The notes under the pieces: generated by a model
The model's database searches: none
What the model saw: only the letters and a program-made list of their open reading frames with translations
What the model was told of the DNA's origin: nothing
Virus record (IMG/VR): IMGVR_UViG_3300033074_002003
Strand: one strand, 5' to 3'
DNA: 64,000 nucleotides
DNA from: a virus
Shown: positions 1-51,438 of the stretch, piece after piece
How positions within the stretch are numbered: position 1 is the stretch's first letter
How the letters are laid out: each line of letters starts with the position of its first letter
Made by a program: the position numbers and the translations under genes

Positions 1-324
1 ATGGCGTGCCCGCGATTGACGATAGGTATGCGACAAACGAACGATTGAAGAGAGCGCCCTCTCGACTGTGTTGAACTATTGCTGCACAGCGAGACCCGGC
101 AAATCCGGTGAGGTAGTGAATTGCGAGAGCGCTGACAACGCCCGAGCGATTGAGTCCCTGGTGACACGTTACGAGCGCAGTCTTTCCCTCTCTTACTGCG
201 GCGGCAACAGCCTGTGCGGCAGAGTGCCAAGACGAAATCCAGTGCTCTGGGATGACACACTCCGCGTCGATCGAAGGTGCTCTGATCACTTGGACGCCCG
301 GGAATCCGAGATCCTGTGGTCCGT

Positions 325-1230
325 CTACTTGGTACTCTTTCGCACAGAGGACAACCACATCGATCCCGGAATCACGCAGGCTGTTTCCTTGCGGTGGGCG
401 AGGACCCTGGTAGATCCTCTGGAAAACCATATCAGCACTGTATTGCACTTGTCACTGGCCTTTTCTGGCTCTCGCGCGGATGGTGTCGAATGACTCCGGC
501 GCGGCGAGGTTGCCAGCATTGTACACCTCGCGCATGATAGAGTAAGGCACTTTCGCGGCACCATCCCGGAGAACAGCGCGCGAATCCTATCCGCGTCGCT
601 GCCCGATGTATTGCTCTCGTGCGCGCAGTAGTTGAAATACGGCCTGCGTCCCGTTGCAGCGTGCCAGAGCTCTCCCTCTCGCGCGATCTGCGCGAGCGTC
701 AGCTTTGCCCTGAACGGCACGAGAGCATTTCGAGCCTCGTCGGTGCTCTCATGGACAGAAAACTGCAACCCGACTGTCGGAACATCGACAGACAGCTTTC
801 TCATCTGCGAATAATCAACGTCGGGTGCACTCGTGCTGACAAGTAGGGCCGCCTTGGGATAGAGCGAGTGCAACTTTCGAACTGCAACATCGAGCTCTTT
901 CATGTTGAGCAGTGGTTCTCCCATGCTCATGAACATGATCTGCAGCTTATCGACCGCACTTGCGTCGATATTGTTCGCAGCGAAGAGGTGCGCGGGCTGC
1001 TCGACGATCTCGTCTGAGGTGAGACTTCGCACGAAGGAGTCGCCAGCACCGCAGAATCGGCATCCGACTGGGCACCCGCTCTGGGTCGAGATGCACATCA
1101 CCGTCCTCTGTTCGTACGTCGGGTACTTGTAGAGGACGGATTCGGCGACAGCATCACCTCGTTCGAAGACGTACTTCAGAACGTTGGCATCGGAGCTGCG
1201 GACGACGCGGGTAGAGTCCCAGTGTTTCAT
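325..1230 (-). CDS. radical SAM enzyme of the RlmN/Cfr RNA methyltransferase family; N-terminally short, and the last ~80 codons are compositionally odd so the C-terminal boundary is uncertain
   Basis: CPVGCRFC (CxxxCxxC) at aa 52-59; MSMGEPLL SAM-binding motif; LLVSTSAP and LQFSVHESTDEARNALVP resemble the RlmN STSG and SLHAPNDELR..LVP motifs. Confidence 0.55.
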   Translation of the reverse strand: MKHWDSTRVVRSSDANVLKYVFERGDAVAESVLYKYPTYEQRTVMCISTQSGCPVGCRFCGAGDSFVRSLTSDEIVEQPAHLFAANNIDASAVDKLQIMFMSMGEPLLNMKELDVAVRKLHSLYPKAALLVSTSAPDVDYSQMRKLSVDVPTVGLQFSVHESTDEARNALVPFRAKLTLAQIAREGELWHAATGRRPYFNYCAHESNTSGSDADRIRALFSGMVPRKCLTLSCARCTMLATSPRRSHSTPSAREPEKASDKCNTVLIWFSRGSTRVLAHRKETACVIPGSMWLSSVRKSTK

Positions 1231-1239
1231 TGCAGCCTC

Positions 1240-2271
1240 CTAGAACTTCTGCGCGAAGTGCGTGATGATGTGGAAGTGGTCCTCAAAGAAAGAGGCCTCG
1301 CTAGCGAACACCTCATTGAGTGGCATCCACCACGCTTTTTCGGCGTCATCGCTACCCCTGACACGCGGCAATTCGCCCGTGCCGAGATCAATTGCAAATG
1401 CGTGTGTGATCGTACGACCCCGGAGAGAGCGACCTGGGTGATCGAACACGTGAGAATCGACGATCGCAGATGACAGTTGCGCGTTTGAGACCTTGATGCC
1501 CGTCTCTTCACGAAGCTCTCGGATCGCACCGGCTCTGATCGTCTCTTTCTGATTGAGGAACCCACCCGGGAGCGCAAAGAGGCCCTTCCCGGGATTGCCC
1601 TTCCTCTTTACGACGAGGACGTGACCGCTCTTGAACACGACGGCATCGACGGTCACAAACATGGGCGGGAACGGAGCGCCTCTCCATGCTTCTTTGTACG
1701 ATTCGATGAAGTGAAACTCTTCCTTGAGAGCCTCAAACTTATCACTCTTGCTGAACTTGAGCAAGAAGTCCGTCACAGCCGCGGGCAAGTAGTTTTGAAA
1801 CTCAGCATCGCCGCGAAAATACAGCTCGCGAATCTCGGTCGCGCCCTTCACACCCTTGATCTCGTCCGTCTCAACGAACTTCCACTGCGGGAAGATGCGA
1901 AGGTAGAAAGAGCTGTCGTCTTTCTCATGGCCGAAAAGAGCTATCGTGGGTGAGGCGTGCTCGGTGGCACCAGTCGTAATTTCGCTCACCTGGCGCTGCA
2001 CCGACGTCACCCACACGTTGTCGTTGTAGAGGTGATCGTTTGCCAACACAAACCTGATGTGCTGCTGCTCTTCGTACGTCAGCGAGTTGAGAATCATCGC
2101 GCCGCGCTCTGCAGCGGTCCAGGGATTCTTGGTCGTCCTGGGTTTGTTGCAGCTACCGATCACAACAATCAGGGTCTCACACCGCTCGAGCGCAAATTTG
2201 ACAGACGCCAGGTGCGCGACGTGAAACGGCTCGAAACGACCGATGTAGACACCAAAATCAAACTTTTCCAT
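1240..2271 (-). CDS. nadM: bifunctional NMN adenylyltransferase / Nudix ADP-ribose pyrophosphatase (NadM-Nudix, NatV-like)
   Basis: N-terminal GRFEPFHVAHL nucleotidyltransferase (H/T)xGH motif; C-terminal Nudix box GGFLNQKETIRAGAIRELREETG. Confidence 0.8.
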   Translation of the reverse strand: MEKFDFGVYIGRFEPFHVAHLASVKFALERCETLIVVIGSCNKPRTTKNPWTAAERGAMILNSLTYEEQQHIRFVLANDHLYNDNVWVTSVQRQVSEITTGATEHASPTIALFGHEKDDSSFYLRIFPQWKFVETDEIKGVKGATEIRELYFRGDAEFQNYLPAAVTDFLLKFSKSDKFEALKEEFHFIESYKEAWRGAPFPPMFVTVDAVVFKSGHVLVVKRKGNPGKGLFALPGGFLNQKETIRAGAIRELREETGIKVSNAQLSSAIVDSHVFDHPGRSLRGRTITHAFAIDLGTGELPRVRGSDDAEKAWWMPLNEVFASEASFFEDHFHIITHFAQKF

Positions 2272-2392
2272 GACACACTCTCCGTGTATTAGGCGTCACT
2301 CGCTCACTGCAAGTATCGACACCAGAGCAGCTTCTCGTGCTCCTGACTATAGGATATGGCGACCCGTGAGTTTGTACACAAAATGCTCTAAC

Positions 2393-3511
2393 TCAGGACG
2401 CCTTTTCAGTATCATCCTTGGTTGAATCGAGCTCAATCTTCACTGCACCCGTCGGAGTGACCTTCTTGAACGCAAGCGCCTCGAAGTACTTCACTGCCTC
2501 CTGATCTTCAAGATTCACGGGTCCACCCATTCTCTTCGAAACGGCGCGACCGAACATTCTCTCCCAATCGCGGTGCTCGGGTGCCCTAACTTCGAGGTTC
2601 TTCTTCCAGGATGCTTCGATGACTGTCGGCGCAATTCCGAGCTGCTTCGCCTGATAGACAAGCGCATTTACGTCCTTCGGGAAACAGTGACCGCCATAGC
2701 CCCGCGAGCCGTCAGGACCCGGCACTGCCCAGTGAGAAGTTCCGAGCCGCTCATCGAGCCGAGCGTATTCAACGACCTTGTCGTAGTCGATATTCGCGCC
2801 CGTGGCATCGAGTGCCTCACAGATCTGTGACATCTCGTTCGCGAAGGCAACCTTCGTGGCGAGGAAGCAATTCGTCACGTACTTTACCATCTCGGCTGTC
2901 GTCGAGCTCGTCTTGATGAGCTTCACGCTCGGGAATGCAGACTGGAAGATCTCCTTCACCTTGTTGATGTGGGGACGCGGCCCGCCGAGGACGATCCTGT
3001 TCTGGTTCCTCATGTCATCGAGAGCGTTTGCCTCTGTGAGGAACTCGGGGCTGAATACGACGCGGAGACCTGTGCCGGCGTACTTCTTGTTCCACGCTTC
3101 TGTCGAGCCAGGTGGAACGGTAGACTTCACGACCGCGATGCGCGAGCCGGGAACTTTTGCAAGTTCATCGAGCGTTGACTCTACGATAGAGAGGTCGGCA
3201 GCACCGTCCTCATACATGGGTGTCGGAAGGCAGACGAAGTAGACGCCCGAGAAAAGGTGCTGTCTCTCACACTCTTCGACAAAGCCGCGCGTATTGGGAA
3301 CCTCTGCTTGTTCCGCGGGCAGAGTGTCGAGGCCGGCATTCTTTTGCATCTGCTCGAACGAGATAGAAGCTGCAATGAGCGCAGTGCCCCCCTCGGCGAC
3401 CTTTCCCATCTTGTCGTAGACAAACACGGTAAACCCGCGCTCATTCATGACAGTAGTGAGAGACCCGCCGACAAAACCTTGACCAATGATCGCTAGCGAT
3501 TGATTTTTCAT
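2393..3511 (-). CDS. ugd: UDP-glucose 6-dehydrogenase (makes UDP-glucuronic acid)
   Basis: N-terminal Rossmann IIGQGFVGG; catalytic-Cys motif GGHCFPKD; overall UDPG/MGDP dehydrogenase layout. Confidence 0.85.
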   Translation of the reverse strand: MKNQSLAIIGQGFVGGSLTTVMNERGFTVFVYDKMGKVAEGGTALIAASISFEQMQKNAGLDTLPAEQAEVPNTRGFVEECERQHLFSGVYFVCLPTPMYEDGAADLSIVESTLDELAKVPGSRIAVVKSTVPPGSTEAWNKKYAGTGLRVVFSPEFLTEANALDDMRNQNRIVLGGPRPHINKVKEIFQSAFPSVKLIKTSSTTAEMVKYVTNCFLATKVAFANEMSQICEALDATGANIDYDKVVEYARLDERLGTSHWAVPGPDGSRGYGGHCFPKDVNALVYQAKQLGIAPTVIEASWKKNLEVRAPEHRDWERMFGRAVSKRMGGPVNLEDQEAVKYFEALAFKKVTPTGAVKIELDSTKDDTEKAS

Positions 3512-4296
3512 TGTTCGTTCCTAATCCAGCTACGATAGCCCAACACTTCTAGCTCACCCTGAGTAACCCAACGATAACTCATTTGCTTAGTTTCAGCAAA
3601 TTTATGAAGCGCAAAACGTTTGAATTCAGCATTTTTATCACGACCCTTTACTTCTTCAATCGATACTCGATCACGAGTTACCAAGAAATCAGGGACAAAC
3701 ATTTTCGGAACGCCATCACAATTTGTGTATGGTATGCGAATACCATGACGTTTTGTCCACATCACAACAGTGACATCACTATCAAGTCTTTGCATGTAAA
3801 ACTTTTCAAGCATTGAATCATAGAAGAAAGATTCACTTGATTTTGATGATGTATACCAACCTTTACGCCCATACCCATTTGTATTGGGTATTGTCCCGTC
3901 AGCAATGCCGCGAGCTCGAGACTCTGACATTCTTTGACACGTTTCTGCTGTGTGGTGTTTTCCAAAGAAAGGATTATTTTCACCCGTAAAACGTTGGCTA
4001 TTTAGCGCAATTTTTCTACGAGCTTCTTCAGTGTGTGTTTTGCCGAAAAAAGAATTTCCTTCGCCTTTACGAGCTAAAGACATCTTAGCACGAGTTTCAA
4101 GTGATGCTTTCTTCCCACGTTTAGATGCGCTCAGCTTTGCTTTACTTTCAATAGAAAAATGCTTTCCGCGAAATGGATTGTTCCTTGTTGTGAAGCAACT
4201 TCGGCACTCTTGCTTTCGTTGTTCAGCACGTAAAAATGCTTGTTCACCCTTGTATGTCAACTCACGATTACATGTTGGACAATTTCGCACAAACAC
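3508..4296 (-). CDS. homing-endonuclease-like protein: N-terminal Zn finger, three NUMOD3 DNA-binding repeats and a C-terminal putative PD-(D/E)XK-like nuclease domain
   Basis: CPTCN..CRSC finger; repeats NPFRGKHFSIESKAKLS / NSFFGKTHTEEARRKIA / NPFFGKHHTAETCQRMS; C-terminal FVPDFLV..IEEVKG; local GC ~42% versus ~55% in flanks; ATGA overlap with ugd. Confidence 0.6.
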   Translation of the reverse strand: MFVRNCPTCNRELTYKGEQAFLRAEQRKQECRSCFTTRNNPFRGKHFSIESKAKLSASKRGKKASLETRAKMSLARKGEGNSFFGKTHTEEARRKIALNSQRFTGENNPFFGKHHTAETCQRMSESRARGIADGTIPNTNGYGRKGWYTSSKSSESFFYDSMLEKFYMQRLDSDVTVVMWTKRHGIRIPYTNCDGVPKMFVPDFLVTRDRVSIEEVKGRDKNAEFKRFALHKFAETKQMSYRWVTQGELEVLGYRSWIRNEQ

Positions 4297-4357
4297 ATTT
4301 AATCCCTTATCTTACAGTTCATGTTGAGCTCACTGTATATCGAGATGCTTCGAGTGT

Positions 4358-5020
4358 TTATTTCCCGCCGAGATGTTCGTGAAGGGCTTCTGACTCGTAC
4401 CTGTCTAGAGCACGCTCATATTTGGGCTCGCGCCCGAGCGAAATTTCTCGCACAGCGACAGACGACGCGAGCGACGGGCGGTGAAGCGTCGACTTTTCGC
4501 CGGCCTCGTTCAACGCAATCGCGACCCTGCTAGAGTAGCACCTGATGCCGCCGAGGATCGCATTCTTTGTGTCGTACCTCCAGAAGGAAGAAAGCCAGAC
4601 GTTCTTCAGAGACTTCTCGGCCTCGAGGTGCCAGTTCTGTTCAGAACAATCGATCACACAACCAGTAATGACGGTGTCATCATCGAGCAACAGGCAGTGT
4701 CGCCAGTCGTCTACGATGACAAAATCACACGATGCTGCGAAGATTTCCGCTAGCGCCTCGCGTGTGGGCTCGGGAACAGAGATGATCCTGCGCGACTTTC
4801 CCAGGATCTGAGAGAGCGCAATGAGTTGTGGAGAAGATCCGATTGCCACAACCAGCGCGGCTTCTGCCGCAGCGGACTTCTTCGCTGCTTTCCTCGCCGT
4901 TTCCTCGGCCCTAAATTTCTTGTTGGCCTCTCGAATCGCTTTCTTCTCGAGGCGCTTCTTCTCGTATTCTGCGATCCGCGCCGCCCGCTCTTCGAGAGAC
5001 AGTTTCACACCTCTGGGCAT
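4358..5020 (-). CDS. hypothetical protein with a basic K/A/E-rich N-terminal region
   Basis: ORF fits the operon phasing; no recognisable catalytic motifs. Confidence 0.4.
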   Translation of the reverse strand: MPRGVKLSLEERAARIAEYEKKRLEKKAIREANKKFRAEETARKAAKKSAAAEAALVVAIGSSPQLIALSQILGKSRRIISVPEPTREALAEIFAASCDFVIVDDWRHCLLLDDDTVITGCVIDCSEQNWHLEAEKSLKNVWLSSFWRYDTKNAILGGIRCYSSRVAIALNEAGEKSTLHRPSLASSVAVREISLGREPKYERALDRYESEALHEHLGGK

Positions 5021-5051
5021 GTTCAGATTTTACGCCGTCAGTGAGGTGTGT

Positions 5052-5822
5052 TCAGCGAAACCTATTTCTCATGATCGAGACAGCCTGTTCGTTGCTATCG
5101 ACCAAGATGCACGTTCGACCCGTATTCAGCGCCGCCTGTCCTGTCGTTCCTGAACCCGCAAAAAAATCTAGGACCGTCCCACCCACCGGGCAAGAGGCTC
5201 TGATCGCTCGCTCAACGAGCTTCACGGGCTTCTGCGTTGGGTAGTGCCCACCGAACTCCCTCTCTTTACTCTGCGTTCCGACAATAGACATCCACCACAC
5301 GTCTGTCGGATTTTTTCCTGCGGCCGCTCGGTCGGCATCTTTCTGCAGTCCGGGCGCCATGTAGGGAATCTTGTCAATGTCATCCCAGTTGAATACGTGC
5401 CCACCGAACGATTTCACGTACACAAGAATGTCATCGTGCTTCCTGGGCCACCGATTTTTCCCGCGCCCGCCGTAATCATAGGCCCAAATCACGTGGTTGA
5501 GGAAGTTGTGTCGACCGAAGATCTCATCGGCGACTGGTTTCACGTCAAACACCGAGTGATAGTCTAGGTGGATGTAGATCGTCCCACTGTCTTTCAATAC
5601 AGCGTGAGCTGCGCTGAGGTAATTTCGAGTGAATTGAACGTAGTCACCCACACTAAATGAGTCACGATAACGAACACCAGCATCCTCCGTAGATTTTTGC
5701 GTGTAACCGCAGTTGAAAGGCGGGTCGACGTAAATCATATCGATCGACTGTTTTGCGCGCGCAGACAGAAATTCCACACAATCACCGTGATGAATCTCTA
5801 GCGGCGAAGCGCCGCCACCCAT
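5052..5822 (-). CDS. beta-class DNA N6-adenine/N4-cytosine methyltransferase with no adjacent restriction enzyme; likely starts at the internal Met (MGGGASPLEIHHGDCVEF) of the longer ORF 5052..6053
   Basis: Motif IV IYVDPPF precedes C-terminal motif I FAGSGTTG (beta-class order); the upstream 77 codons are Arg-rich and overlap the ATP-grasp gene in another frame. Confidence 0.75.
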   Translation of the reverse strand: MGGGASPLEIHHGDCVEFLSARAKQSIDMIYVDPPFNCGYTQKSTEDAGVRYRDSFSVGDYVQFTRNYLSAAHAVLKDSGTIYIHLDYHSVFDVKPVADEIFGRHNFLNHVIWAYDYGGRGKNRWPRKHDDILVYVKSFGGHVFNWDDIDKIPYMAPGLQKDADRAAAGKNPTDVWWMSIVGTQSKEREFGGHYPTQKPVKLVERAIRASCPVGGTVLDFFAGSGTTGQAALNTGRTCILVDSNEQAVSIMRNRFR

Positions 5823-5845
5823 CTCATCTGGCGCTGGGCCTCTTC

Positions 5846-6646
5846 TCACGTGAGCACTTCTTTCCGCAGTGCGACGTACAGATCGAGAGCTTCGTTCATC
5901 GACAGCCCGGACTGTTGGCCGTCGTTCACTTCGACGACGATCCACCCGCCATCTTGCTTCTGTGCCACATCGACAGCAAAGAACGTGACGTGCTGCGCGA
6001 TGATCTCTGCAACAGATGCCAGAAATTCGGGTGGCGGTCGGGACGTGATCCACTCGGGAGGCACGTCTTCACCGTGCGTCGACCAGTAGTATCCCGTCGT
6101 CAGTTCTGTTGTCTTGTAGAAGAACGAGCGATACTCGCGTGTGATCGGGAGCCCGTGATCTGACCTGCAGTGTGTGAGCAGTGGGACGTACTCTCTGATG
6201 TAGATGTCCTGTTCACCCACAAGAGAATCGGCCGTGAGTCGTGAGTGGACTCGCACGGCGTCCTCGAAAGTCTCTGCGTACATGTGAGTGTCCCACAGAA
6301 ATTTCATCGAGTTCGTCGCGCCCTTCAGGACGAAAGGTCCCTTCGCGTCTCTTATATCCTGAAGCCTAAACCACGTCTTTGGCGTGAGGTCGCCGAGAGC
6401 CGTAGACCACTCGCGCATATCTGCACAGAACTGGTGTTCTCTGTATGTGTTTATGAGTGCACCACCGAGAAGTTCTATATCGTTCTCGAATTCCTTGAAG
6501 AAGGGCAGTGCAGAGTAGCGAGGCACGACAAAATCGCCAGGCTGTACGGCTGCGCGCTGGCGAATGACAGTGAATCCCGCCTGCTGCGCGGCCTCCCGTT
6601 CGTGGTCTTCTTCGCGACCCCCTCGCAGTAGCACTACAGTTCTCAC
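5846..6646 (-). CDS. ATP-grasp fold ligase-like protein
   Basis: C-terminal GGWIVVEVNDGQQSG resembles the ATP-grasp C-terminal strand (cf. RimK ..VMEVNASPG); ATGA overlap with glf. Confidence 0.45.
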   Translation of the reverse strand: MRTVVLLRGGREEDHEREAAQQAGFTVIRQRAAVQPGDFVVPRYSALPFFKEFENDIELLGGALINTYREHQFCADMREWSTALGDLTPKTWFRLQDIRDAKGPFVLKGATNSMKFLWDTHMYAETFEDAVRVHSRLTADSLVGEQDIYIREYVPLLTHCRSDHGLPITREYRSFFYKTTELTTGYYWSTHGEDVPPEWITSRPPPEFLASVAEIIAQHVTFFAVDVAQKQDGGWIVVEVNDGQQSGLSMNEALDLYVALRKEVLT

Positions 6647-7749
6647 AGGTGCCGTTTTGCGAGTGTCAGAGCAGAGGCGACGCAGGGACCCATGTCTGTG
6701 TAGGTGTACCTTCCCAGTCGCCCTCCGACTACATACTTCGGGTCTGAATCGGCGAGCCTCTTGTATTTCTGGTAGACCTCGCCGTTCTTATCGTCATTGA
6801 TCGGATAGTACGGGATCGCGTCGCGCGTCCACACTTCTGGGAACTCGCGCGTCACAACCGACGTGGGCAGGTTGTCCTTGAATTCGAAGTGCTTGTGTTC
6901 TACCTGACGCGTCCAGGGAACGTCGCGCTCTGTGTAGTTCACAGTTGCGGTTCCTTGCACATCGCCCAGGTTGACAGTGTGTTCGAACCTCAGTGTCCTG
7001 TACTCGAGCTCTCCATGAACGTACCCATAGAGCTTGTCGATGGGCCCAGTGTAGAGGATCTTGTCACACATCGCCTCGAGAGTGTGCTGCTCCTTGAAGA
7101 AGTCGACACCCAACTGAACTTCGATTCCTTCGAGCATGTTCTCGAAAATCTGTGTGTAGCCGCCGATGGGAATTCCCTGGTGCTTGTCGTTGAAATAGTT
7201 GTCGTCCCACGTGAGGCGAATTGGGAGGCGTCGCAGGATACTTGCCGGGAGCTTGTCTGGCGTGCGCATCCACTGCTTCGTTGTGTAGCCGTAGACGAAT
7301 GTCTCGTAGATCTGACGACCGACCTGTGTGAGCGCCCACTCTTCCATATTTCGCGGCTGTGGGTATCGCTCTCGGTAGCTACGCGTCACTTCTGCCAAGT
7401 GCATCTTCGCCTCTGCGGGCGTTGACACTCCCCAGAGTTGGTACAGCGTCATCATGTTGATCGGGAAAGAGAACATCTTTCCCTCATAGTTCACCTTCGG
7501 CCGGCAGACGAAGTGATTGAACTTCGTGAAGCGATTTACGTACCCCCACGTTTCGTCGTCGTTGCAGTGGAAGACGTGGGGACCGTGCATATGAACATGT
7601 GTACCTTCTATTTCCTTTGTGTAGCAATTACCACCGACATGTGATTGTTTGTCGATCACCAAACAACGCTTGCCCGCTTCCTTAGCCCTCTGAGCGAATG
7701 TTGAACCTGTAAGACCAGCACCAACAATCAGAAAATCATATTTTGACAT
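6643..7749 (-). CDS. glf: UDP-galactopyranose mutase (makes UDP-galactofuranose); probable start at MSKYDFLIVGAG
   Basis: Near-collinear similarity to Glf: FAD-binding DFLIVGAGLTGS, HVGGNCYT, HMHGPHVFHCND, YQGIPIGGYTQIFENML. Confidence 0.85.
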   Translation of the reverse strand: MSKYDFLIVGAGLTGSTFAQRAKEAGKRCLVIDKQSHVGGNCYTKEIEGTHVHMHGPHVFHCNDDETWGYVNRFTKFNHFVCRPKVNYEGKMFSFPINMMTLYQLWGVSTPAEAKMHLAEVTRSYRERYPQPRNMEEWALTQVGRQIYETFVYGYTTKQWMRTPDKLPASILRRLPIRLTWDDNYFNDKHQGIPIGGYTQIFENMLEGIEVQLGVDFFKEQHTLEAMCDKILYTGPIDKLYGYVHGELEYRTLRFEHTVNLGDVQGTATVNYTERDVPWTRQVEHKHFEFKDNLPTSVVTREFPEVWTRDAIPYYPINDDKNGEVYQKYKRLADSDPKYVVGGRLGRYTYTDMGPCVASALTLAKRHL

Positions 7750-8530
7750 CGAGTTTATTCCTGAGATACTGTACAAGATTATTTTGTGCTAGCTCACGCT
7801 GTGCTTCTAAATCTGTAATTCGGACGAGACGAATGTTTTGATTTTCGAACCACAATACTTGCTCTTGATCTCGAGCTCGCGTGTCTAAAATTACGCGATC
7901 GATGGGTTTATCACTCAACTGTATCGCTTCAACAGAACGATCCAGACCGTGCCAGAACACGCCGTCGACTTGAACATAGATCGTAGGCTCTTTGACTTTG
8001 AGATCAATTTCCCAACCGTTGATTCTGCTCGGCCATTCAACGAGATCTTCGCCGAAGATCGATGCTAGCGCATCACGCACGCTTCTCTCGATTTTGGAGT
8101 GTCGATAAGTTCCATTTTTGACGCGTGTCTGTCTTCCTTTTGCATAGTTCGCGGGCGAAAATGCATTTACTCTCCATTCATCAAATTTTGCTTTGCCTTC
8201 GCTTTCACCGTACTTGGAAATGAGCTTTTCAAGTCTTTCTTGATTTGTCAACCCAGCAGTACCGACCTTATTAGCAGTTTGCCATTTTGATCTACAAGAG
8301 AATCCACAAAATGCAATAGCACCCGCCGAAAGTCGCGCACCATTGATTCGTTGTGTGGTTTCTTGCTTACACTGTTTACACACAAACGTATAATCAACGG
8401 CAACCCATCCGTTCTTCTCTTGACGCTGCCGAACCCAGTAACTAGACAAACACGATTGCGAACAAAAGCGAAGTTTTCTGCCAATACCAGACGCGTCTTC
8501 AAAATCACACAAACAACGTGGACAGTTCAA
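7736..8530 (-). CDS. Zn-finger protein with a C-terminal Vsr/DUF559-like PD-(D/E)XK endonuclease domain (homing-endonuclease-like)
   Basis: CPRC..C..SC and CKQCK..C..SC fingers; C-terminal IYVQVDGVFWHG..DR..L...G..LVRI typical of DUF559/Vsr endonucleases; low local GC (~40%). Confidence 0.55.
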   Translation of the reverse strand: MNCPRCLCDFEDASGIGRKLRFCSQSCLSSYWVRQRQEKNGWVAVDYTFVCKQCKQETTQRINGARLSAGAIAFCGFSCRSKWQTANKVGTAGLTNQERLEKLISKYGESEGKAKFDEWRVNAFSPANYAKGRQTRVKNGTYRHSKIERSVRDALASIFGEDLVEWPSRINGWEIDLKVKEPTIYVQVDGVFWHGLDRSVEAIQLSDKPIDRVILDTRARDQEQVLWFENQNIRLVRITDLEAQRELAQNNLVQYLRNKLDVKI

Positions 8531-8549
8531 AGTGTATTCCCATATGTCA

Positions 8550-8915
8550 TCAGCAGTACCTCACGTTCCCGCTACGACAGCGGCCCACTTCTCTTCCCAT
8601 GACATTGAGTCGCTTCTCAATTGCATCTAGACGGATCACCAACATCGGATCGATCGCCTGCGGAGACGGTGGAATGTTCTCTGCGGGGAGCGCAGGTGCG
8701 GGATCGGCGGCGTCCTCTTGCCGTGCATCACCTTCAGCTGGTGTCAGATTGACATCTTCGGCTGAGAGGGTTGTTACCTTCTCGAAGGTCAGTTGGAGGT
8801 GTTCTTTGATCACGCGGGCTTGCGCTGCGCTGATTGAACCAGAACCGCTCGGCTGCAGTTCAAAGTAACCCTGTAGCCAGTAGCAGAATTGTTCTGGTGT
8901 CATTTGCTCTCCCAC
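8550..8915 (-). CDS. hypothetical protein (conserved small phage protein, MTPEQFCYWLQGYFEL N-terminus)
   Basis: ORF in operon phase; no catalytic motif. Confidence 0.4.
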   Translation of the reverse strand: MGEQMTPEQFCYWLQGYFELQPSGSGSISAAQARVIKEHLQLTFEKVTTLSAEDVNLTPAEGDARQEDAADPAPALPAENIPPSPQAIDPMLVIRLDAIEKRLNVMGREVGRCRSGNVRYC

Positions 8916-9286
8916 ACGTAGTTTGTTGTTGTGACCGTGTCGTCAAATCTGTCCGCTAGAGTGTGGAAGTAAATTTTGGGACGCACGTTCGACCTAAGAT
9001 ACTTTTGCACCATCATGTCCTGCAAGAAAAACGACCACACGCGCAGTTCATCGTTGATCCCTGCATTTGGCAGGCGATAAGCGTCCATGTGCATCATTAC
9101 GGGATTGCCGTGCCCAGTCCAGAATTTGGGCGTTGAAACGATTTCGCAATCGATCTCGTCGGGAATGAGAATTTTCTCGATAATGAGCAACTCAGACTCG
9201 GAGGGCTCAGCCCTTCCACTTTTAGTCTTGCTCTCGTGAAGAGTTTTCAGCAAGAGCTCTTTTTCGTCGCTGTTAAAGTGTCTCAT
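8900..9286 (-). CDS. hypothetical protein
   Basis: ORF in operon phase, overlaps its neighbours by a few codons. Confidence 0.35.
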   Translation of the reverse strand: MRHFNSDEKELLLKTLHESKTKSGRAEPSESELLIIEKILIPDEIDCEIVSTPKFWTGHGNPVMMHMDAYRLPNAGINDELRVWSFFLQDMMVQKYLRSNVRPKIYFHTLADRFDDTVTTTNYVWESK

Positions 9287-10187
9287 GCAATGCTCGAATG
9301 ACGTCAGACCACCCGCCCTGTGATTTTATCTCCTCAACACCCTGTTGTATCGCCTTGTCGTTTCTAGTGGGATCTCTGCCGAGAACGCTTCTGATATTTG
9401 TGACGAGCGAATCGAGGTCCTCAAATGGCCTGATCGTTTCGATCGTTTCACAGCCATAAGTGAACACCTGATCGTCAAATGATCGCATCGAGAAGCAGCC
9501 TCGAGCCGCGGCTTCGATGTCTTTGATCCACGGTGGGCTCGCGTTGATCTTTTCGCCGTCAACAGTGCACTCAAAGTTCTCGCTGTGCACAAACACTTTC
9601 ATCTGCGAAAGCGTCGCGAGATAGCTCTGGTAGTCTACCTGTGGAGCGATAGTGACGTCAATGCCGCGAGATTTGAGACCCTCAAACAATTCTCTGCGAT
9701 ACGGGTGAAGTGTACCACAGAATCCGACGTCAATTTTTCTATCGGAAAACTTGGGACCTACGCTGCAGTACTGCGGCAACATCCACATCCTGACAAACTT
9801 CGACGGGATTCCGCGCGAGACGACGAAGTTCGACCACCACGAAGACGTTGTCAGGAATGTTGCGAGGTTCAACCTGCGCTTGATGACATCGTACGTTCCC
9901 TTGAATGGCGACTCGTCGCGGAACGACTCCCACACGTCCTGCTCGTAGAAAAGTGTCCGCGCGCCGCCAAGAAATGATTCGATAGCATCGATCTCACGGT
10001 GAATGGTACGCAACTTCAGAAGTGACAGCGTTCGATCTGAACCCTTCTCGAGTCGCGATCCAGATCGCACGTCAGCGAGTTCATAGTACCTGACGCTGCA
10101 CTGCTGGTCTAGTGTTGCGAGGAGCTGGTGAATGTAGCAATTTGATCTCGCGTACTGGAGTGAGTCTACGATGACGTCTACTTTCAT
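9273..10187 (-). CDS. putative glycosyltransferase (GT-B C-terminal-domain-like, CgeB-like)
   Basis: Weak similarity to group-1 GT C-terminal half; embedded in the glycan operon. Confidence 0.3.
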   Translation of the reverse strand: MKVDVIVDSLQYARSNCYIHQLLATLDQQCSVRYYELADVRSGSRLEKGSDRTLSLLKLRTIHREIDAIESFLGGARTLFYEQDVWESFRDESPFKGTYDVIKRRLNLATFLTTSSWWSNFVVSRGIPSKFVRMWMLPQYCSVGPKFSDRKIDVGFCGTLHPYRRELFEGLKSRGIDVTIAPQVDYQSYLATLSQMKVFVHSENFECTVDGEKINASPPWIKDIEAAARGCFSMRSFDDQVFTYGCETIETIRPFEDLDSLVTNIRSVLGRDPTRNDKAIQQGVEEIKSQGGWSDVIRALHETL

Positions 10188-47457: not shown

Positions 47458-48286
47458 GCTCTCAGACGATCTTGTGCACTGTTGGGTCTGTGGCTATAGT
47501 TCGAGGAACCTTGTCCCGCTTCTCAGGAAGTTTGGAAGCCACGATGACCTGAGTTTCTACATCGAGAAGTCTGGGTCATCTCTCACATTTCAGAAGCCCG
47601 CCGAAGACGAAAGCGTTCCACTGAAGTTGCCCGAGGGGTTCAGGTTGATCGCCCCACTCATCGGCCGCGGCGATCGAGACGTTGTTCGTGCGATGCGATA
47701 CCTCAAGGAGCGCGGGCTCACAGCGTCAGACGCGTGGTACTACAAGTTTGGTGTCGCTCCGACGCTCCCAGATCGCGTCATCATGCCCTCATTCGATCAA
47801 GTGGGTGGGCTAAATTTCTGGACGGCCCGTTCGATCGTTGACGCTCGTCCGAAGTACATCGATCCCCCGAAGGAGTGTGTGAGGAAGAATGAGATCATCT
47901 TCAATGAGATCAACATTGACTGGAAGAAGGAGCTTGTCATCGTCGAGGGCCCATTTGACCTGACGAAGTGTCCCACCAATACGACAGCCCTTCGAGGCAA
48001 CCAACTCTCTGAAGAGTCTCGGCTACTTATACAGATCGTGATCCACGAGACTCCTTGTGTCGTGATGCTTGACGACGATGCAACTGATCGCGCCGGGAAA
48101 ATCGTGAGGACATTGGCGTCGTACGGCGTCACTGCAAAGCGCGCTAACCTCGGCGAATTTCACGATCCGGGCGAGATGACGAAGAAACAGGTTGCCGACT
48201 GCGTAAAAGCCGCACGTGAGCTACAATGGGAAGATCACCTCTCCGACAAGCTTTCTAAATTGGATCGCCTTCACCTCTCGTTTTGA
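47309..48286 (+). CDS. DnaG-type DNA primase (Zn ribbon plus TOPRIM), T4 gp61-like
   Basis: CPICLQQ..HCWVCGY zinc ribbon; TOPRIM ELVIVEGPFD and VVMLDDDATDRAG. Confidence 0.7.
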   Translation: MFALSDKVKFIERVFGKGDVTRNLTNIQVTCPICLQQSQKWSQKRKLAVRLSDDLVHCWVCGYSSRNLVPLLRKFGSHDDLSFYIEKSGSSLTFQKPAEDESVPLKLPEGFRLIAPLIGRGDRDVVRAMRYLKERGLTASDAWYYKFGVAPTLPDRVIMPSFDQVGGLNFWTARSIVDARPKYIDPPKECVRKNEIIFNEINIDWKKELVIVEGPFDLTKCPTNTTALRGNQLSEESRLLIQIVIHETPCVVMLDDDATDRAGKIVRTLASYGVTAKRANLGEFHDPGEMTKKQVADCVKAARELQWEDHLSDKLSKLDRLHLSF

Positions 48287-51200
48287 GGCACATGAAAATC
48301 TGTCACATCGCAGACATCCACATCCGTTCGATCAGCAGGCACGATGAGTACCGAACTGTGTTTCAGAGTCTCATCGACGACCTGAAAAAAGATCCCGTTG
48401 ACGTTATCTTTGTCGGGGGCGATGTCTGGCACACGAAAACAGCTGGGCTCACACCTGAGTACATCGACTTCATGCGGTGGTGGCTGACAGAGCTCGCGAA
48501 TTGTGCCGAGCTGTTTGTTACTCTTGGAAATCACGACGGAAATCTCGTCAACACTGACAGGCAGGATGCAGTGTCGCCGATCGTCGCCGCCCTCGCAAAC
48601 CCGCGCGTGAAGCTGTACAAGAAGAGCGGTGTATATGAGTTCAAGAAGGGCTGGAACTTCTGCGTCTACTCGCTATTCGATCGCGAGGGGTGGAAGAATG
48701 TATCACCCGAGAAGGGGAAGATCAACATCGCGTGCTATCACGGCGGTGTCAGGTCTTCTCTGACCGAGACGGGTTGGCCAATCGAAGAGGGCCCGTCTGT
48801 CGACTTCTTCGACGGGTATGACCTTGTCCTCCTCGGTGACATCCATCGCCAGCAGTTTCTCGGCAGCCCGAAGAACGGACAGCCGTGGATCGCGTACCCC
48901 GGAACGCCAGTCTGTCAGAACTACGCAGAGGGCTACCAGAAGCACGGGTACCTAAAATGGGTGCTGAATGATGACGGTGTCGTAAGCTCTGTTGATTTCG
49001 TCGAGCTGAAGCAACCGAACCCGTTCGTGACAGTCGACTGGGAGGGCGATCGAGAGAAGTTCGTCAAAGATATCGAGGAGCTTCCGGAGGCAGCGAGGTT
49101 CCGTGTCAAGAGCTCTGTGTTCGTATCACAGGATGACATGGGTGTCATCTCTGCGACACTGAAGAAGAAGAAATCGGCGATCGAAGTCGTCTTGAAGTCT
49201 GAGGTGACACACAAGAAGGACGTGTTCTCGGCGGGCGGCCTTGAGATGATGCGCGATGACTTGCGCAATGTCGAGGTCCTGACACTTCTCTTGAAGGATT
49301 TCTATCGCGGTATCTCTATCAGCAATTCTGAGTGGGATGACGTCACGAAACTCGTTGAGAAGTACTTGCGATCGGCTTCGAGTGACGACGAGTCACCGCG
49401 ACACGTCAAGTGGAGAATCGGCGAATTCTCGTTCGAGAACCTGTACTCTTACGGGCTCGGCAACAAGATCAACTTTGAGAAGCTGTCTGGTATCGTCGGA
49501 ATTTTCGGACCTAACAGGTCTGGGAAGTCATCGATCGTCGGGACGATGATGTATGGTCTCTTCAACACGACAGATCGCGGGGCGGTCAAAAACCTTCAGA
49601 TCGTAAATGACAGGAAGTCCTCCGGCGAGGCGAAGATCGCACTTCAGGTGGGTGAAGCGAAGTACGTGCTGACGCGTGAGACAAACAAAACAGACACGAA
49701 GAAGGGCATCACAGTCGCGGCCACTTCACTCGATCTGAGGCGTATCGCCGCTGACGGCTCTCTTGTGAACATGAACGGTGAGCAGAGAAATGACACCGAG
49801 AAGACGATCAGGAAGTTGATCGGTACACAGGACGATTTCCTGCTCACGTCAATGTCAACACAGGGTGATCTGAACAAGTTCATCAACGAGGGCTCTGCCT
49901 TCAGGAAACTGATTCTCACGAAGTTCCTCGACCTCGACATCTTTGAGAAGATGCACGAAGCAGCCAAAGCAGAGCTCAAAGCGGCGACAGCGATATCAAA
50001 GACGATCCCAAAGCGTGATTGGCCAGCAGAGCTAAAGAAGATCGACACAAAGCTGTCTAATTTTGATGACTTCGCAGAGAAGATCGAGACAAAGCTGTCT
50101 GAGCTTCGGGCATCGCTGCATACCGCACAGGTGAAGCTCGCGCTGTATAAAAACACCTCAACTGTGTCAGAGGACGAAATTTCTGCCGCAGTAGCTCTTC
50201 TAGAGTCGTACGTTGCTTCTTCTGAAGCGCTCGAAGTGCAGCTCAAGAAGCTTCGCCTCTCGCTGGAAAATGGTCACGATGCCCACGCTCGCGTCCTATC
50301 CCTTCTCGAGAACTACGACGCAGAACAGCTACGAATTGAGCGTGATAACGGCGTAGCACTAAAATCTGCGGCAAAGACGCTTGAGGCACAGCTCACTCGC
50401 GCGAAAGAGGATGTCGAGAGGTTGAAGAGGTCCGCAAAGAAGCTAAGTGTCGTCCCATGCGAAGACAAGTTTCCCACGTGCATGTTCATCAAAGACTCTC
50501 ACGTCGATAGGGGAGAACTACCCGCCGCAGAACAGAATGTCGCCGAACTAGAAAAATCTCTCGAGAGCACAAATTCGGCATTTTCTGACTGGCAGAAGCT
50601 CGATACGGAGAAGAAGTTCGCAGAGCACGCTCGCCTCCTGACAGAAGAGAGGTCACTCGCAAACGCTATCTCGGCGTCAGAGGTGTCGGTCACAAAGACA
50701 GAGAGCCAACTTAGTATTGCGAACGCGAAGCGCGGAGCACAGAAGATCAAGGTCGATGAGCTCGTCGAGGCTGCGGCTCGTGCGGAGAGTGTCGAGGCAC
50801 TTACTCTCCAGAGAGAGTGCGACTCGATCAACGAAGACATCAAGCGTTACGACAAAATGAAAGTCGATGCCGCCACCAGTCGCGGCAAATTTGAGACTGA
50901 GGCGAAGCAGCTGAAGTCACAGCAGTCACAGTACGAAAAAGTTCAGCATGACATTCACGTGACGGAGCTGATCTCAGAGGCTTTCTCGAAGCGCGGAATT
51001 CCCACGAAAATCATCAATTCGCAGCTGCCGGCGATAAACGCTACTGTCGCTGAAATTCTCCATGGCGTTGTGGATTACACGATTGAGTTCGTTGCGGACG
51101 AGGACTCGAACGCCCTTGACGTGATCTTGAACTACGGCGATTCAAAGAGGGTTATCGAGCTCGGATCTGGCATGGAGAAACTATTTGCGTCACTTGCAAT

Positions 51201-51438
51201 CAGGGTGGCACTTCACACGATCACCTCGCTCCCAAAGACCGACATGTTTGTCATTGACGAAGGATTTGGCTCTCTGGACGACCTCAATGTGGAGCCCTGT
51301 AATCGCCTCTTGAGATCGCTGAAGAGGTACTTCGGAACGGTGATTGTCATCACACACGTGGGTGGTATCAAGGATTCTGCCGACACGATCATTGAGATCG
51401 CTCGAGACGGAAAAGACTCGAAGGTGGTCGCAGAATGA
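48283..51438 (+). CDS. single-polypeptide fusion of Mre11/SbcD-like nuclease (T4 gp47-like) and Rad50/SbcC-like ABC ATPase (T4 gp46-like)
   Basis: N-terminal phosphoesterase motifs ICHIADIHI, FVGGDVWH, TLGNHD; Walker A FGPNRSGKSS at ~aa 410; long coiled coil with CEDKFPTC hook-like motif; signature GSGMEK; Walker B MFVIDEGFGSLD; H-loop IVITHV. Confidence 0.75.
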   Translation: MRHMKICHIADIHIRSISRHDEYRTVFQSLIDDLKKDPVDVIFVGGDVWHTKTAGLTPEYIDFMRWWLTELANCAELFVTLGNHDGNLVNTDRQDAVSPIVAALANPRVKLYKKSGVYEFKKGWNFCVYSLFDREGWKNVSPEKGKINIACYHGGVRSSLTETGWPIEEGPSVDFFDGYDLVLLGDIHRQQFLGSPKNGQPWIAYPGTPVCQNYAEGYQKHGYLKWVLNDDGVVSSVDFVELKQPNPFVTVDWEGDREKFVKDIEELPEAARFRVKSSVFVSQDDMGVISATLKKKKSAIEVVLKSEVTHKKDVFSAGGLEMMRDDLRNVEVLTLLLKDFYRGISISNSEWDDVTKLVEKYLRSASSDDESPRHVKWRIGEFSFENLYSYGLGNKINFEKLSGIVGIFGPNRSGKSSIVGTMMYGLFNTTDRGAVKNLQIVNDRKSSGEAKIALQVGEAKYVLTRETNKTDTKKGITVAATSLDLRRIAADGSLVNMNGEQRNDTEKTIRKLIGTQDDFLLTSMSTQGDLNKFINEGSAFRKLILTKFLDLDIFEKMHEAAKAELKAATAISKTIPKRDWPAELKKIDTKLSNFDDFAEKIETKLSELRASLHTAQVKLALYKNTSTVSEDEISAAVALLESYVASSEALEVQLKKLRLSLENGHDAHARVLSLLENYDAEQLRIERDNGVALKSAAKTLEAQLTRAKEDVERLKRSAKKLSVVPCEDKFPTCMFIKDSHVDRGELPAAEQNVAELEKSLESTNSAFSDWQKLDTEKKFAEHARLLTEERSLANAISASEVSVTKTESQLSIANAKRGAQKIKVDELVEAAARAESVEALTLQRECDSINEDIKRYDKMKVDAATSRGKFETEAKQLKSQQSQYEKVQHDIHVTELISEAFSKRGIPTKIINSQLPAINATVAEILHGVVDYTIEFVADEDSNALDVILNYGDSKRVIELGSGMEKLFASLAIRVALHTITSLPKTDMFVIDEGFGSLDDLNVEPCNRLLRSLKRYFGTVIVITHVGGIKDSADTIIEIARDGKDSKVVAE

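What the first reader, a model, noticed from the sequence alone, without database searches (positions are those of the whole stretch)
3508..4296. Low-GC homing-endonuclease-like insertion with inverted domain order inside the glycan operon
GC drops to about 42% against ~55% in the flanks. The protein has an N-terminal Zn finger and three NUMOD3 repeats. Its C-terminal segment (FVPDFLV..IEEVKG) looks like a PD-(D/E)XK nuclease. This is the reverse of the usual order of an N-terminal GIY-YIG or HNH catalytic domain followed by NUMOD DNA-binding modules. It is ATGA-coupled to ugd and so rides on the operon's expression.
Basis: partly seen in the sequence, partly recalled or inferred. Interest (0 to 1): 0.55.

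Follow-up and report, generated by a model that had tools for sequence, protein, structure and literature searches.

The report
Mobile nuclease gene inserted before phage ugd
A selfish, horizontally mobile nuclease gene of an uncharacterised type has inserted at the very start of a phage sugar-metabolism gene (ugd), bringing a replacement gene start with it; a close relative without the insertion shows exactly where it went in.

Summary
Window 3508-4296 (- strand) is an intact 262-aa ORF with 40.6% GC against about 56% in both flanking genes. It has a CxxC...CxxC zinc finger, three NUMOD3 repeats and a C-terminal PD-(D/E)XK nuclease domain. Its stop overlaps the ugd start (ATGA).

A close relative (L052, about 88% nt identity) lacks the gene. 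In L052 the 220-aa ORF ("p220", window 4358-5020) is followed directly by ugd. The foreign segment in the window is therefore about 3467-4317. It comprises a 21-nt leader, the endonuclease ORF and a replacement first 15 codons of ugd.

All eight homologues with at least 43% identity whose context was examined (window included) sit immediately 5' of ugd, behind different upstream genes. More than 20 related ugd loci lack it. More distant clades sit 5' of SDR epimerase or DEDD exonuclease genes. Several loci keep a remnant of the target gene's 5' end that stops at the Rossmann GxGxxG codons.

It is best read as a free-standing homing endonuclease of an experimentally uncharacterised NUMOD3 + TnsA-like family. 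The inverted domain order is real, but it was already described for the EDxHD family.

The parts
3508..4296 (-). Endonuclease ORF (HE1), 262 aa, GTG start, stop TGA at 3508-3510
   Evidence: ORF; NUMOD3, TnsA-like N, PHROG 15427 'endonuclease'; homologues, 99% to 25% identity
4195..4281 (-). Zinc finger, residues 6-34 (C6, C9, C31, C34)
   Evidence: Cys positions. Cys columns are conserved in A1 and A2. AF2 pLDDT is about 97 for residues 1-30. The family profile hits the I-TevI DNA-binding domain 1i3j at E 1e-3.
3898..4185 (-). NUMOD3 repeat region, residues about 38-133 (three N.F.GK.H + helix units and one half unit)
   Evidence: NUMOD3, E 1.7e-27; motifs at residues 39, 78, 105; TIGR01453 group I intron endonuclease, residues 50-132, below cut-off
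3511..3879 (-). TnsA-like PD-(D/E)XK nuclease domain, residues about 140-262. Catalytic codons: E164 (3805-3807), D203 (3688-3690), E215 (3652-3654), K217 (3646-3648).
4297..4317 (-). 21-nt leader brought in with the endonuclease (CTGTAAGATAAGGGATTAAAT), including a purine-rich Shine-Dalgarno-like AAGGGA
   Evidence: this stretch is absent from the insertion-free relative L052. Similarity to L052 ends at window 4318.
4299..4322 (-). Remnant of the original ugd start. The ATGAA at 4318-4322 is still identical to the empty-site allele. It now opens a 7-codon mini-ORF (MNCKIRD*) that stops 2 nt before the endonuclease GTG.
   Evidence: sequence comparison with L052. That the mini-ORF has any function is inference.
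3467..3511 (-). Replacement 5' end of ugd (codons 1-15), of different origin from the rest of ugd
   Evidence: compared with L052 there is a codon indel and 7 of 27 nt mismatches, all synonymous. This is followed by 32 identical nt from 3466. The background is 54 mismatches in 456 nt.
3464..3484 (-). GGTCAAGGTTTTGTCGGCGGG, the codons for the Rossmann G-Q-G-F-V-G-G motif. This is the candidate recognition/cleavage region (inferred).
   Evidence: Remnants of target genes upstream of homologous endonucleases stop at or just before GGN-TTY. The crossover point in the window lies just 3' of it.
3508..3511 (-). ATGA stop/start overlap between the endonuclease and ugd
   Evidence: A 4-nt overlap is also seen in L035, L040, L043, L048, L049, L051 and Moonbeam gp26.
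2393..3511 (-). ugd (UDP-glucose/GDP-mannose dehydrogenase family), the target/host gene

Best explanation
HE1 is a free-standing homing endonuclease gene. It is not inside an intron or an intein. It belongs to an experimentally uncharacterised family with a zinc finger and NUMOD3 DNA-binding modules at the N-terminus and a TnsA-like PD-(D/E)XK nuclease at the C-terminus.

Shown:
- The gene, a 21-nt leader and a replacement first 15 codons of ugd form one foreign block (about 3467-4317). An about 88%-identical relative lacks this block.
- The ugd-associated clade of the family always sits immediately 5' of ugd, whatever lies upstream.
- The catalytic residues are invariant across the family.

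Inferred mechanism:
- In a mixed infection the enzyme binds a long site through its extended NUMOD3/zinc-finger arm.
- It cuts an endonuclease-free ugd allele in or just 3' of the DNA that encodes the Rossmann G-x-G-F-(V/I)-G motif.
- Repair from the endonuclease-carrying genome copies the cassette.
- When the upstream genes are not homologous, the left junction forms illegitimately. This leaves a stub of the old ugd 5' end: ATGAA in this window, and longer stubs in L048, L035 and L043.
- The cassette keeps ugd functional by supplying a new start that is translationally coupled (ATGA) to the endonuclease ORF.
- The endonuclease itself probably uses the old ugd ribosome-binding site, through a 7-codon mini-ORF that ends 2 nt before its GTG.
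For: (1) Empty site. L052 aligns to window 4318-5192 (88.7%) and 3011-3507 (86.7%), with only 2 nt in between.

(2) Foreign composition in three different genomic backgrounds: HE 0.41 vs 0.56, 0.40 vs 0.48, and 0.45 vs 0.55-0.59.

(3) Position. The window, P0002, P0003, P0004, P0005, P0007 and P0011 are all directly 5' of ugd. Their upstream neighbours differ: the 220-aa ORF (p220), a glycosyltransferase-like gene, a 129-aa ORF, a 312-aa ORF, an SNase, an epimerase and a methyltransferase. P0013, P0019, P0021 and P0024 are 5' of SDR epimerases. P0030 and Moonbeam gp26 are 5' of a DEDD-type exonuclease gene. Endonuclease clades track the target gene.

(4) Patchy distribution. More than 20 IMG/VR ugd loci with 46-67% ugd identity lack it. 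Endonuclease-positive ugd genes are scattered in a ugd NJ tree.

(5) Footprints. The 5' end of the target gene is duplicated upstream of the endonuclease in L048 (MKSIAVIGQGL*, 0 of 1000 shuffles), L043 (KKILITGSSGF.., 0 of 1000), L042 (MLVFIDTEL.., 0 of 1000) and L035 (28 of 1000).

(7) A homologue with the same architecture (hhalign probability 96.8%, E 2.6e-10) sits between split-intein halves in fractured ugd genes. That is a classic homing-endonuclease location (arrangement defined in PMC2677866).

(8) No group I intron, no terminal inverted repeats, and no promoter or terminator in the leader.
Against: - No cleavage activity or biased inheritance has been shown for any member of this family.
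- The endonuclease-positive and endonuclease-free ugd alleles cannot be told apart at the proposed target motif across genomes. How the carrier protects itself is therefore unexplained.
- The window itself retains only 5 nt of the old ugd, so it has no statistically significant remnant (991 of 1000 shuffles).
- The cut-site inference combines junctions from endonucleases that are only 36-58% identical to each other.
- Only one insertion-free close relative was found, and it is a 1.4-kb contig.
- The trees are NJ without support values.
Confidence: 0.8

Rival explanations
1. A decaying or inactive relic. The gene arrived by homing but no longer cuts DNA. It persists only because ugd translation now depends on the ATGA coupling to its reading frame.
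For: Homing endonuclease genes commonly degenerate after fixation (established homing-cycle model). One family member (L051) has a frameshifted N-terminus. Three assemblies from related samples (L001-L003) all carry an identical HE1, as expected after fixation. ugd has lost its own ribosome-binding context.
Against: The ORF is intact. All six family-invariant residues, including E164, D203, E215 and K217, are present. The zinc-finger cysteines are intact. The 99%-identical copy P0001 differs by only two conservative changes beyond the start codon. GC3 of 0.29 against 0.67 shows little amelioration, which suggests recent arrival.
Confidence: 0.12
2. A domesticated DNA-binding nuclease that works for the phage, not for its own spread. 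It could degrade host or competitor DNA, or regulate the glycan operon.
For: It is co-oriented and translationally coupled within an operon. Some phage homing-endonuclease-like genes are known to act in exclusion of competing phages (general knowledge of T4 seg/mob genes).
Against: A near-identical relative does without it. It is strictly linked to one target gene's 5' end behind different upstream genes, and target-gene stubs are present. Both point to site-specific insertion, not to a conserved host function. More than 20 related glycan clusters lack it.
Confidence: 0.05
3. The restriction endonuclease partner of the N6/N4 DNA methyltransferase two genes upstream (window 5052-5822), or the TnsA subunit of a Tn7-like transposon.
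For: The domain has a PD-(D/E)XK restriction-type fold and a best structural match to TnsA. A methyltransferase lies nearby (PF01555).
Against: None of the other 13 family loci examined has an adjacent methyltransferase of this type, or any TnsB/TnsC/TnsD gene. There are no terminal inverted repeats. NUMOD3/zinc-finger modules are typical of homing endonucleases (PMC3239194). The insertion is a single gene of 0.8 kb.
Confidence: 0.03

Closest known systems
EDxHD / Vsr-like homing endonucleases (I-Bth0305I; Dassa et al. 2009, PMC2677866; Taylor et al. 2011, PMC3239194)
   Same: Phage-borne. N-terminal NUMOD DNA-binding region and a C-terminal restriction-fold nuclease, so the same 'reversed' order. 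Members occur free-standing, next to or inside conserved genes, and between split-intein halves.
I-TevI and other GIY-YIG/NUMOD3 phage homing endonucleases (T4 Seg proteins, I-BmoI)
   Same: Zinc finger plus NUMOD3 extended DNA-binding arm. The family profile hits the I-TevI DNA-binding domain 1i3j at E 1e-3. TIGR01453 matches residues 50-132. The free-standing lifestyle between conserved phage genes is shared.
   Different: There is no GIY-YIG domain. The nuclease is at the C-terminus and has a different fold.
Tn7 TnsA (PF08722; PDB 1f1z, 1t0f)
   Different: No TnsB/C/D partners and no transposon ends. The protein has a sequence-reading NUMOD3/zinc-finger arm instead of TnsA's C-terminal TnsC-binding domain. 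It scores 22.0 bits against the Pfam cut-off of 26.5.
I-Ssp6803I (PF11645), the first PD-(D/E)XK homing endonuclease
   Same: A restriction-fold nuclease used for homing.
   Different: I-Ssp6803I is intron-encoded, small, tetrameric and has no NUMOD modules (PMC2677866). HE1 gives no Pfam hit to PF11645.
Bacillus phage Moonbeam gp26 ('endonuclease, contains NUMOD3 domain'; PHROG 15427)
   Same: A true family member: 40% identity over residues 75-260. It passes the PF08722 cut-off at 32.5 bits. It also has a 4-nt overlap with the downstream gene.
   Different: It sits 5' of a DEDD exonuclease gene (annotated 'RNaseH'), not ugd. It is annotated only by domain content and is not characterised.

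Membership tests
PD-(D/E)XK nuclease superfamily, TnsA-like N-terminal domain (PF08722) | Restriction-endonuclease-like alpha/beta core superimposable on TnsA | tested here: met
PD-(D/E)XK nuclease superfamily, TnsA-like N-terminal domain (PF08722) | Catalytic E ... (P)D ... (D/E)xK residues present and conserved | tested here: met
   E164, P202-D203, E215 and K217 are invariant in 100 representatives clustered at 50% identity. They align with the T7 endonuclease I and TnsA motifs.
PD-(D/E)XK nuclease superfamily, TnsA-like N-terminal domain (PF08722) | Score above Pfam's gathering threshold | tested here: inconclusive
   HE1 scores 22.0 bits against a cut-off of 26.5. The relatives Moonbeam gp26 (32.5) and P0021 (30.2) pass. 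88 of 100 family representatives match at E <= 1e-3.
Tn7-type heteromeric transposase (TnsA function) | Adjacent TnsB/TnsC genes and transposon end repeats | tested here: not met
   Neighbouring genes in the window and in 13 family loci show none. No terminal inverted repeats.
NUMOD3 DNA-binding modules | Pfam PF07460 above threshold, in repeated copies | tested here: met
   95.5 bits against a cut-off of 20.4. Three N.F.GK.H motifs.
Free-standing homing endonuclease gene | Presence/absence polymorphism with a precise empty site in a close relative | tested here: met
   L052 lacks window 3508-4317. The flanks are 87-89% identical.
Free-standing homing endonuclease gene | Constant position relative to a conserved target gene in otherwise different genomes; sporadic phylogenetic distribution | tested here: met
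   8 of 8 members of the ugd clade (window included) are directly 5' of ugd, with different upstream genes. More than 20 ugd loci lack it. Carriers are scattered on the ugd tree.
Free-standing homing endonuclease gene | Not embedded in a self-splicing intron or an intein | tested here: met
   No Rfam intron match in window 1-10000. The ORF lies between two complete ORFs.
Free-standing homing endonuclease gene | Site-specific double-strand cleavage of the endonuclease-free allele, and biased inheritance in mixed infection | not testable with these tools
   Requires protein expression with cleavage mapping, and phage crosses.
EDxHD / Vsr-like homing endonucleases | E-D-x-H-D catalytic signature and a Vsr-like core | tested here: not met
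GIY-YIG, HNH, T5orf172 and I-Ssp6803I-type homing endonucleases | The corresponding catalytic domain detectable | tested here: not met
   No such Pfam, PHROG or NCBIfam domain in HE1. Matches to GIY-YIG families cover only the NUMOD3 region.

The most novel reading that the evidence does not exclude
This family may home into the first conserved motif of its target gene. For most members examined, that is the DNA encoding the Rossmann G-x-G-F-(V/I)-G dinucleotide-binding loop within the first 10-16 codons.

It would do so as a self-contained cassette made of a leader, the endonuclease and a replacement 5' end with a coupled start codon. Such a cassette needs homology only on the 3' side.

Because the recognised core (GGN-TTY-RTN-GG) recurs in unrelated NAD/FAD enzymes, the same lineage could jump between non-homologous genes such as ugd and SDR epimerases. 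A second, unrelated endonuclease sits in the same way in front of glf in this window.
Probability: 0.35. Interest if true: 0.7.

Novelty: new variant of a known kind. Interest (0 to 1): 0.55.

Why it matters
The recognised homing endonuclease lineages are few: LAGLIDADG, GIY-YIG, HNH, His-Cys box, the PD-(D/E)XK enzyme I-Ssp6803I, and EDxHD.

A NUMOD3 + TnsA-like family of several hundred 50%-identity clusters (428 with E <= 1e-3) would add a distinct restriction-fold lineage. This case comes with a defined empty site and a narrowly bounded candidate target. It also shows an unusual way of staying harmless: replacing the target gene's 5' end and coupling translation.

That makes the family directly testable. 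The DNA substrate and the active-site mutants can be specified now. The modular 'reader arm + C-terminal nuclease' layout could interest people who engineer nucleases.

It also matters for annotation. Gene callers truncated or missed these ORFs in identical DNA (101 aa against 260 aa), and several use GTG starts.

Tried and rejected
- Megablast of window 1-9000 against INPHARED phages found no match. tblastn with a 646-aa window protein also found none. The phage has no close cultured relative; the best portal identity is 40%, to Microcystis phage Mel-JY01.
- Contigs with an identical ugd protein (L001-L003) all carry an identical HE1, so they gave no empty site.
- I looked for a co-conversion gradient in ugd protein identity among endonuclease-positive loci. 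There is none at this divergence.
- I looked for nucleotide positions in the GxGxxG region that separate endonuclease-positive from endonuclease-free alleles. There are none.
- Nucleotide-level self-alignment for target-gene remnants was mostly insignificant because of synonymous divergence. Protein-level alignment worked.
- The 220-aa upstream gene (p220) found nothing in IMG/VR. The junction 30-mer found nothing in IMG/VR.
- A single-sequence phmmer search against PDB found nothing useful.
- Literature searches for NUMOD3 with TnsA or TnsA-like found no description of this family.
- The transposon reading was rejected: no inverted repeats and no TnsB/C.
- The R-M reading was rejected: the methyltransferase is not linked in other loci.
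- The intron-encoded reading was rejected.

Full report
**1. Observation**

Window 3508-4296 (- strand) is a 262-aa ORF with a GTG start. Homologues begin MF(V/E)R.C at the aligned residue, and several also use GTG, which supports this start.

- Composition. Its GC is 0.406 and GC3 is 0.293. ugd has 0.559/0.673 and the upstream 220-aa gene 0.561/0.656. It is the lowest-GC stretch of the 64-kb window.
- Pfam. NUMOD3 scores 95.5 bits against a cut-off of 20.4. Tn7_TnsA-like_N gives a sub-threshold match (22.0 against 26.5 bits, residues 176-246).
- PHROGs. The best match is phrog_15427, 'endonuclease', at 3.7e-18.
- Motifs. C6, C9, C31 and C34 form a CxxC...CxxC zinc finger. Three N.F.GK.H motifs lie at residues 39, 78 and 105.
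- Junction. The stop overlaps the ugd start as ...CAA TGA / ATG AAA....

**2. The nuclease domain**

- An AlphaFold2 model built on 30 homologues has mean pLDDT 90.
- Foldseek against the PDB returns only TnsA at E < 1e-3 (9bw1_M, 1t0f, 1f1z; probability 1.0).
- A search of 1.84 billion cluster representatives with residues 135-262 alone found 428 clusters at E <= 1e-3 and 90 at E <= 1e-10. In nearly all of the 150 listed hits the domain lies at the C-terminal end of a 200-340-aa protein.
- In an alignment of 100 of these, S161, E164, P202, D203, E215 and K217 are invariant. 88 match PF08722 and 44 match NUMOD3 at E <= 1e-3.
- The N-terminal half of the family profile matches the I-TevI DNA-binding domain (1i3j, E 1e-3).

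Numbering note: alignment A1 and the model are offset by -1 from the full-length numbering used here.

**3. It is an insertion**

A 1,374-bp metagenome contig (L052, OFRO01019932.1) carries the 220-aa upstream gene (p220, window 4358-5020) at 95% amino-acid identity, followed directly by ugd. L052 2-875 aligns to window 4318-5192 (88.7%). L052 878-1374 aligns to window 3011-3507 (86.7%).

- Left junction. The two sequences are identical through ...GAGCTCAACATGAA (window 4347-4318). The window then continues CTGTAAGATAAGGGATTAAAT-GTG (the endonuclease start), while L052 continues with ugd codons. The original ugd ribosome-binding context and ATGAA therefore survive at 4318-4322. They open a 7-codon mini-ORF that ends 2 nt before the endonuclease GTG.
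- Right junction. The first 45 nt of the window's ugd differ from L052 by a codon indel and by 7 of 27 mismatches, all synonymous, in the A-I-I-G-Q-G-F-V-G codons. These are followed by 32 identical nucleotides from 3466. The background is 54 mismatches in 456 nt.

The foreign block is therefore about 3467-4317. It comprises the leader, the endonuclease and a replacement ugd 5' end.

**4. Distribution and context**

Seven homologues with 43-58% identity were located on contigs. Every one sits immediately 5' of a ugd gene, overlapping or abutting its start. The upstream gene differs each time.

- Four more distant members sit in the same way in front of SDR epimerase/dehydratase genes.
- P0030 and Bacillus phage Moonbeam gp26 sit in front of a gene that begins with a DEDD exonuclease motif.
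- In an NJ tree of the endonucleases these three groups form separate clades.
- More than 20 IMG/VR phage loci with ugd 46-67% identical have ordinary sugar-pathway genes directly upstream and no endonuclease.
- Endonuclease-positive ugd genes are scattered among endonuclease-free ones.
- The endonuclease is 10-15 GC points below its host genome in three different backgrounds.

**5. Footprints and the likely target**

Upstream of the endonuclease in several loci there is a stub of the target gene's own 5' end.

| Locus | Stub | Intact target start | Shuffles reaching the score |
|---|---|---|---|
| L048 | MKSIAVIGQGL* | MKSICVIGQGF... | 0 of 1000 |
| L043 | KKILITGSSGFCQ* | MKRILITGSGGFIF... 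| 0 of 1000 |
| L042 | MLVFIDTELVL* | MLVMIDTEF... | 0 of 1000 |
| L035 | MKSIAVI... | | 28 of 1000 |

- In the two Rossmann-gene cases with the longest stubs, the retained recipient sequence stops at GGN-TT(Y).
- In L046 and L053 the endonuclease ORF ends within a few nucleotides of that motif.
- In the window the donor tract ends just 3' of the motif.

Taken together, these place the break that initiated insertion in a window of about 40 bp starting at the Phe codon of G-x-G-F. This is inference, and it combines different enzymes.

I could not find nucleotide differences that distinguish carrier from non-carrier alleles across genomes. Self-protection is therefore unexplained.

**6. Mechanism**

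- Shown: the anatomy, the empty site, the site specificity and the conserved active site.
- Inferred: the enzyme cuts endonuclease-free ugd alleles during co-infection, and repair copies the cassette. Where the upstream genes are not homologous, the left junction forms illegitimately and leaves stubs.
- The ATGA overlap is conserved as a 4-nt overlap in 8 of the 13 loci where the junction was read (window included). It keeps the displaced target gene translated.
- No promoter or terminator was found in the leader. The gene is therefore most likely read from the operon transcript.
- There is no intron and there are no transposon-like ends.

**7. Independent support**

In L011/L012 and L020, ugd is 'fractured' at its catalytic cysteine (GGHC|FPKD) by a split intein. 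A free-standing ORF lies between the intein halves. In L013 the split intein is present without that ORF.

The ORF has the same zinc finger + NUMOD3-like + PD..K architecture. It is homologous to the HE1 family (hhalign probability 96.8%, E 2.6e-10). This is the arrangement described for homing endonucleases by Dassa et al. (PMC2677866).

**8. Comparison with what is known**

- The reversed order (NUMODs at the N-terminus, nuclease at the C-terminus) was explicitly noted for the EDxHD/Vsr-like family (PMC3239194). It is not new in itself.
- It is not I-Ssp6803I-like, GIY-YIG, HNH or T5orf172.
- It is not a Tn7 TnsA in function, because it has no partners and no transposon ends.
- The PD-(D/E)XK survey of Steczkiewicz et al. 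lists the TnsA family only as a bacterial transposase (PMC3424549).
- Full-text searches found no paper that combines NUMOD3 with TnsA.
- Databases already contain members annotated by domain only: Moonbeam gp26 and PHROG 15427.

**9. Verdict**

This is a real, well-delimited, recently acquired free-standing homing-endonuclease cassette. Its family is known to databases but not characterised.

- Novelty: a new variant of a known kind.
- Interest: moderate (0.55).
- What is worth following up: the empty site, the 5'-end-replacement design and the candidate Rossmann-motif target.

Noticed in passing
window 7736-8530 (- strand): A second low-GC (0.44-0.46) endonuclease-like ORF of 264 aa. It has N-terminal zinc-finger-like Cys pairs and a C-terminal Vsr-like segment (EIDL..VQVDGVFWHGLDR). 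Matches are weak: Pfam Vsr E 0.12, TIGR00632 E 0.005, phrog_559 E 0.0018. Its stop lies 14 nt inside the start of glf (UDP-galactopyranose mutase) and 12 nt before the glf GxGxxG codons. This is the same placement as HE1 before ugd, but from a different nuclease family. L015 10803-11726 is a homologue.
   Followed up: partly
window 7456-7540 and 8654-8859, compared with L001: L001 (SRR32380195) is identical to the window over 13.5 kb except for 27 differences. All of them lie in two patches flanking the second endonuclease gene: 4 in glf, and 23 (17 substitutions plus a 6-nt indel) in the 121-aa gene upstream. The endonuclease gene itself is 100% identical. This looks like recombination or co-conversion tracts around a homing endonuclease.
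   Followed up: partly
L011/L012 5974-8067; L020 5938-8046; L013 5998-7608: ugd is 'fractured' at its catalytic Cys (GGHC|FPKD) by a split intein. In L011/L012 and L020 a free-standing DUF7487-type zinc finger/NUMOD3/PD..K endonuclease ORF lies between the halves. In L013 the split intein has no endonuclease. ugd seems to be a hotspot for mobile elements in these phages.
   Followed up: partly
L015 6972-7733: In a 324-kb phage contig, a 253-aa zinc finger/NUMOD3/PD..K ORF sits immediately downstream of ugd, not upstream, again with a 4-nt stop/start overlap.
   Followed up: partly
L001-L003, L040, L046, L048: Automatic gene calls on identical DNA gave 260 aa in one contig and 101 aa in two others for HE1. 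Homologues were called truncated (192-212 aa), although in-frame GTG/ATG starts with the zinc finger lie upstream. This family is systematically mis-called.
   Followed up: yes
window 4358-6646: Three genes lie between glf and HE1/ugd: an R2K-type ATP-grasp-like gene, an N6/N4 DNA methyltransferase and a 220-aa ORF of unknown function. In relative L014, glf and ugd are adjacent, so this block may be a further insertion into the glycan cluster.
   Followed up: no
L051 about 2800-3645: The homologous endonuclease in front of an SDR epimerase has its zinc-finger part in a different reading frame from the rest. This is probably a frameshifted, decaying copy. A possible stub of the epimerase start (MRVLVTESSG*) lies upstream.
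   Followed up: partly
window 2393-2520 (3' end of ugd): The window's ugd (372 aa) has a C-terminal extension of about 40 residues that does not align to the 305-338-aa ugd proteins of related phages.
   Followed up: no
window 48283-51438: A single 1051-aa ORF fuses a calcineurin-like phosphoesterase (SbcD/Mre11-like) domain with an SMC/AAA_23 (SbcC/Rad50-like) domain. Similar ORFs of about 1043 aa lie directly upstream of ugd in L017/L019/L024.
   Followed up: no
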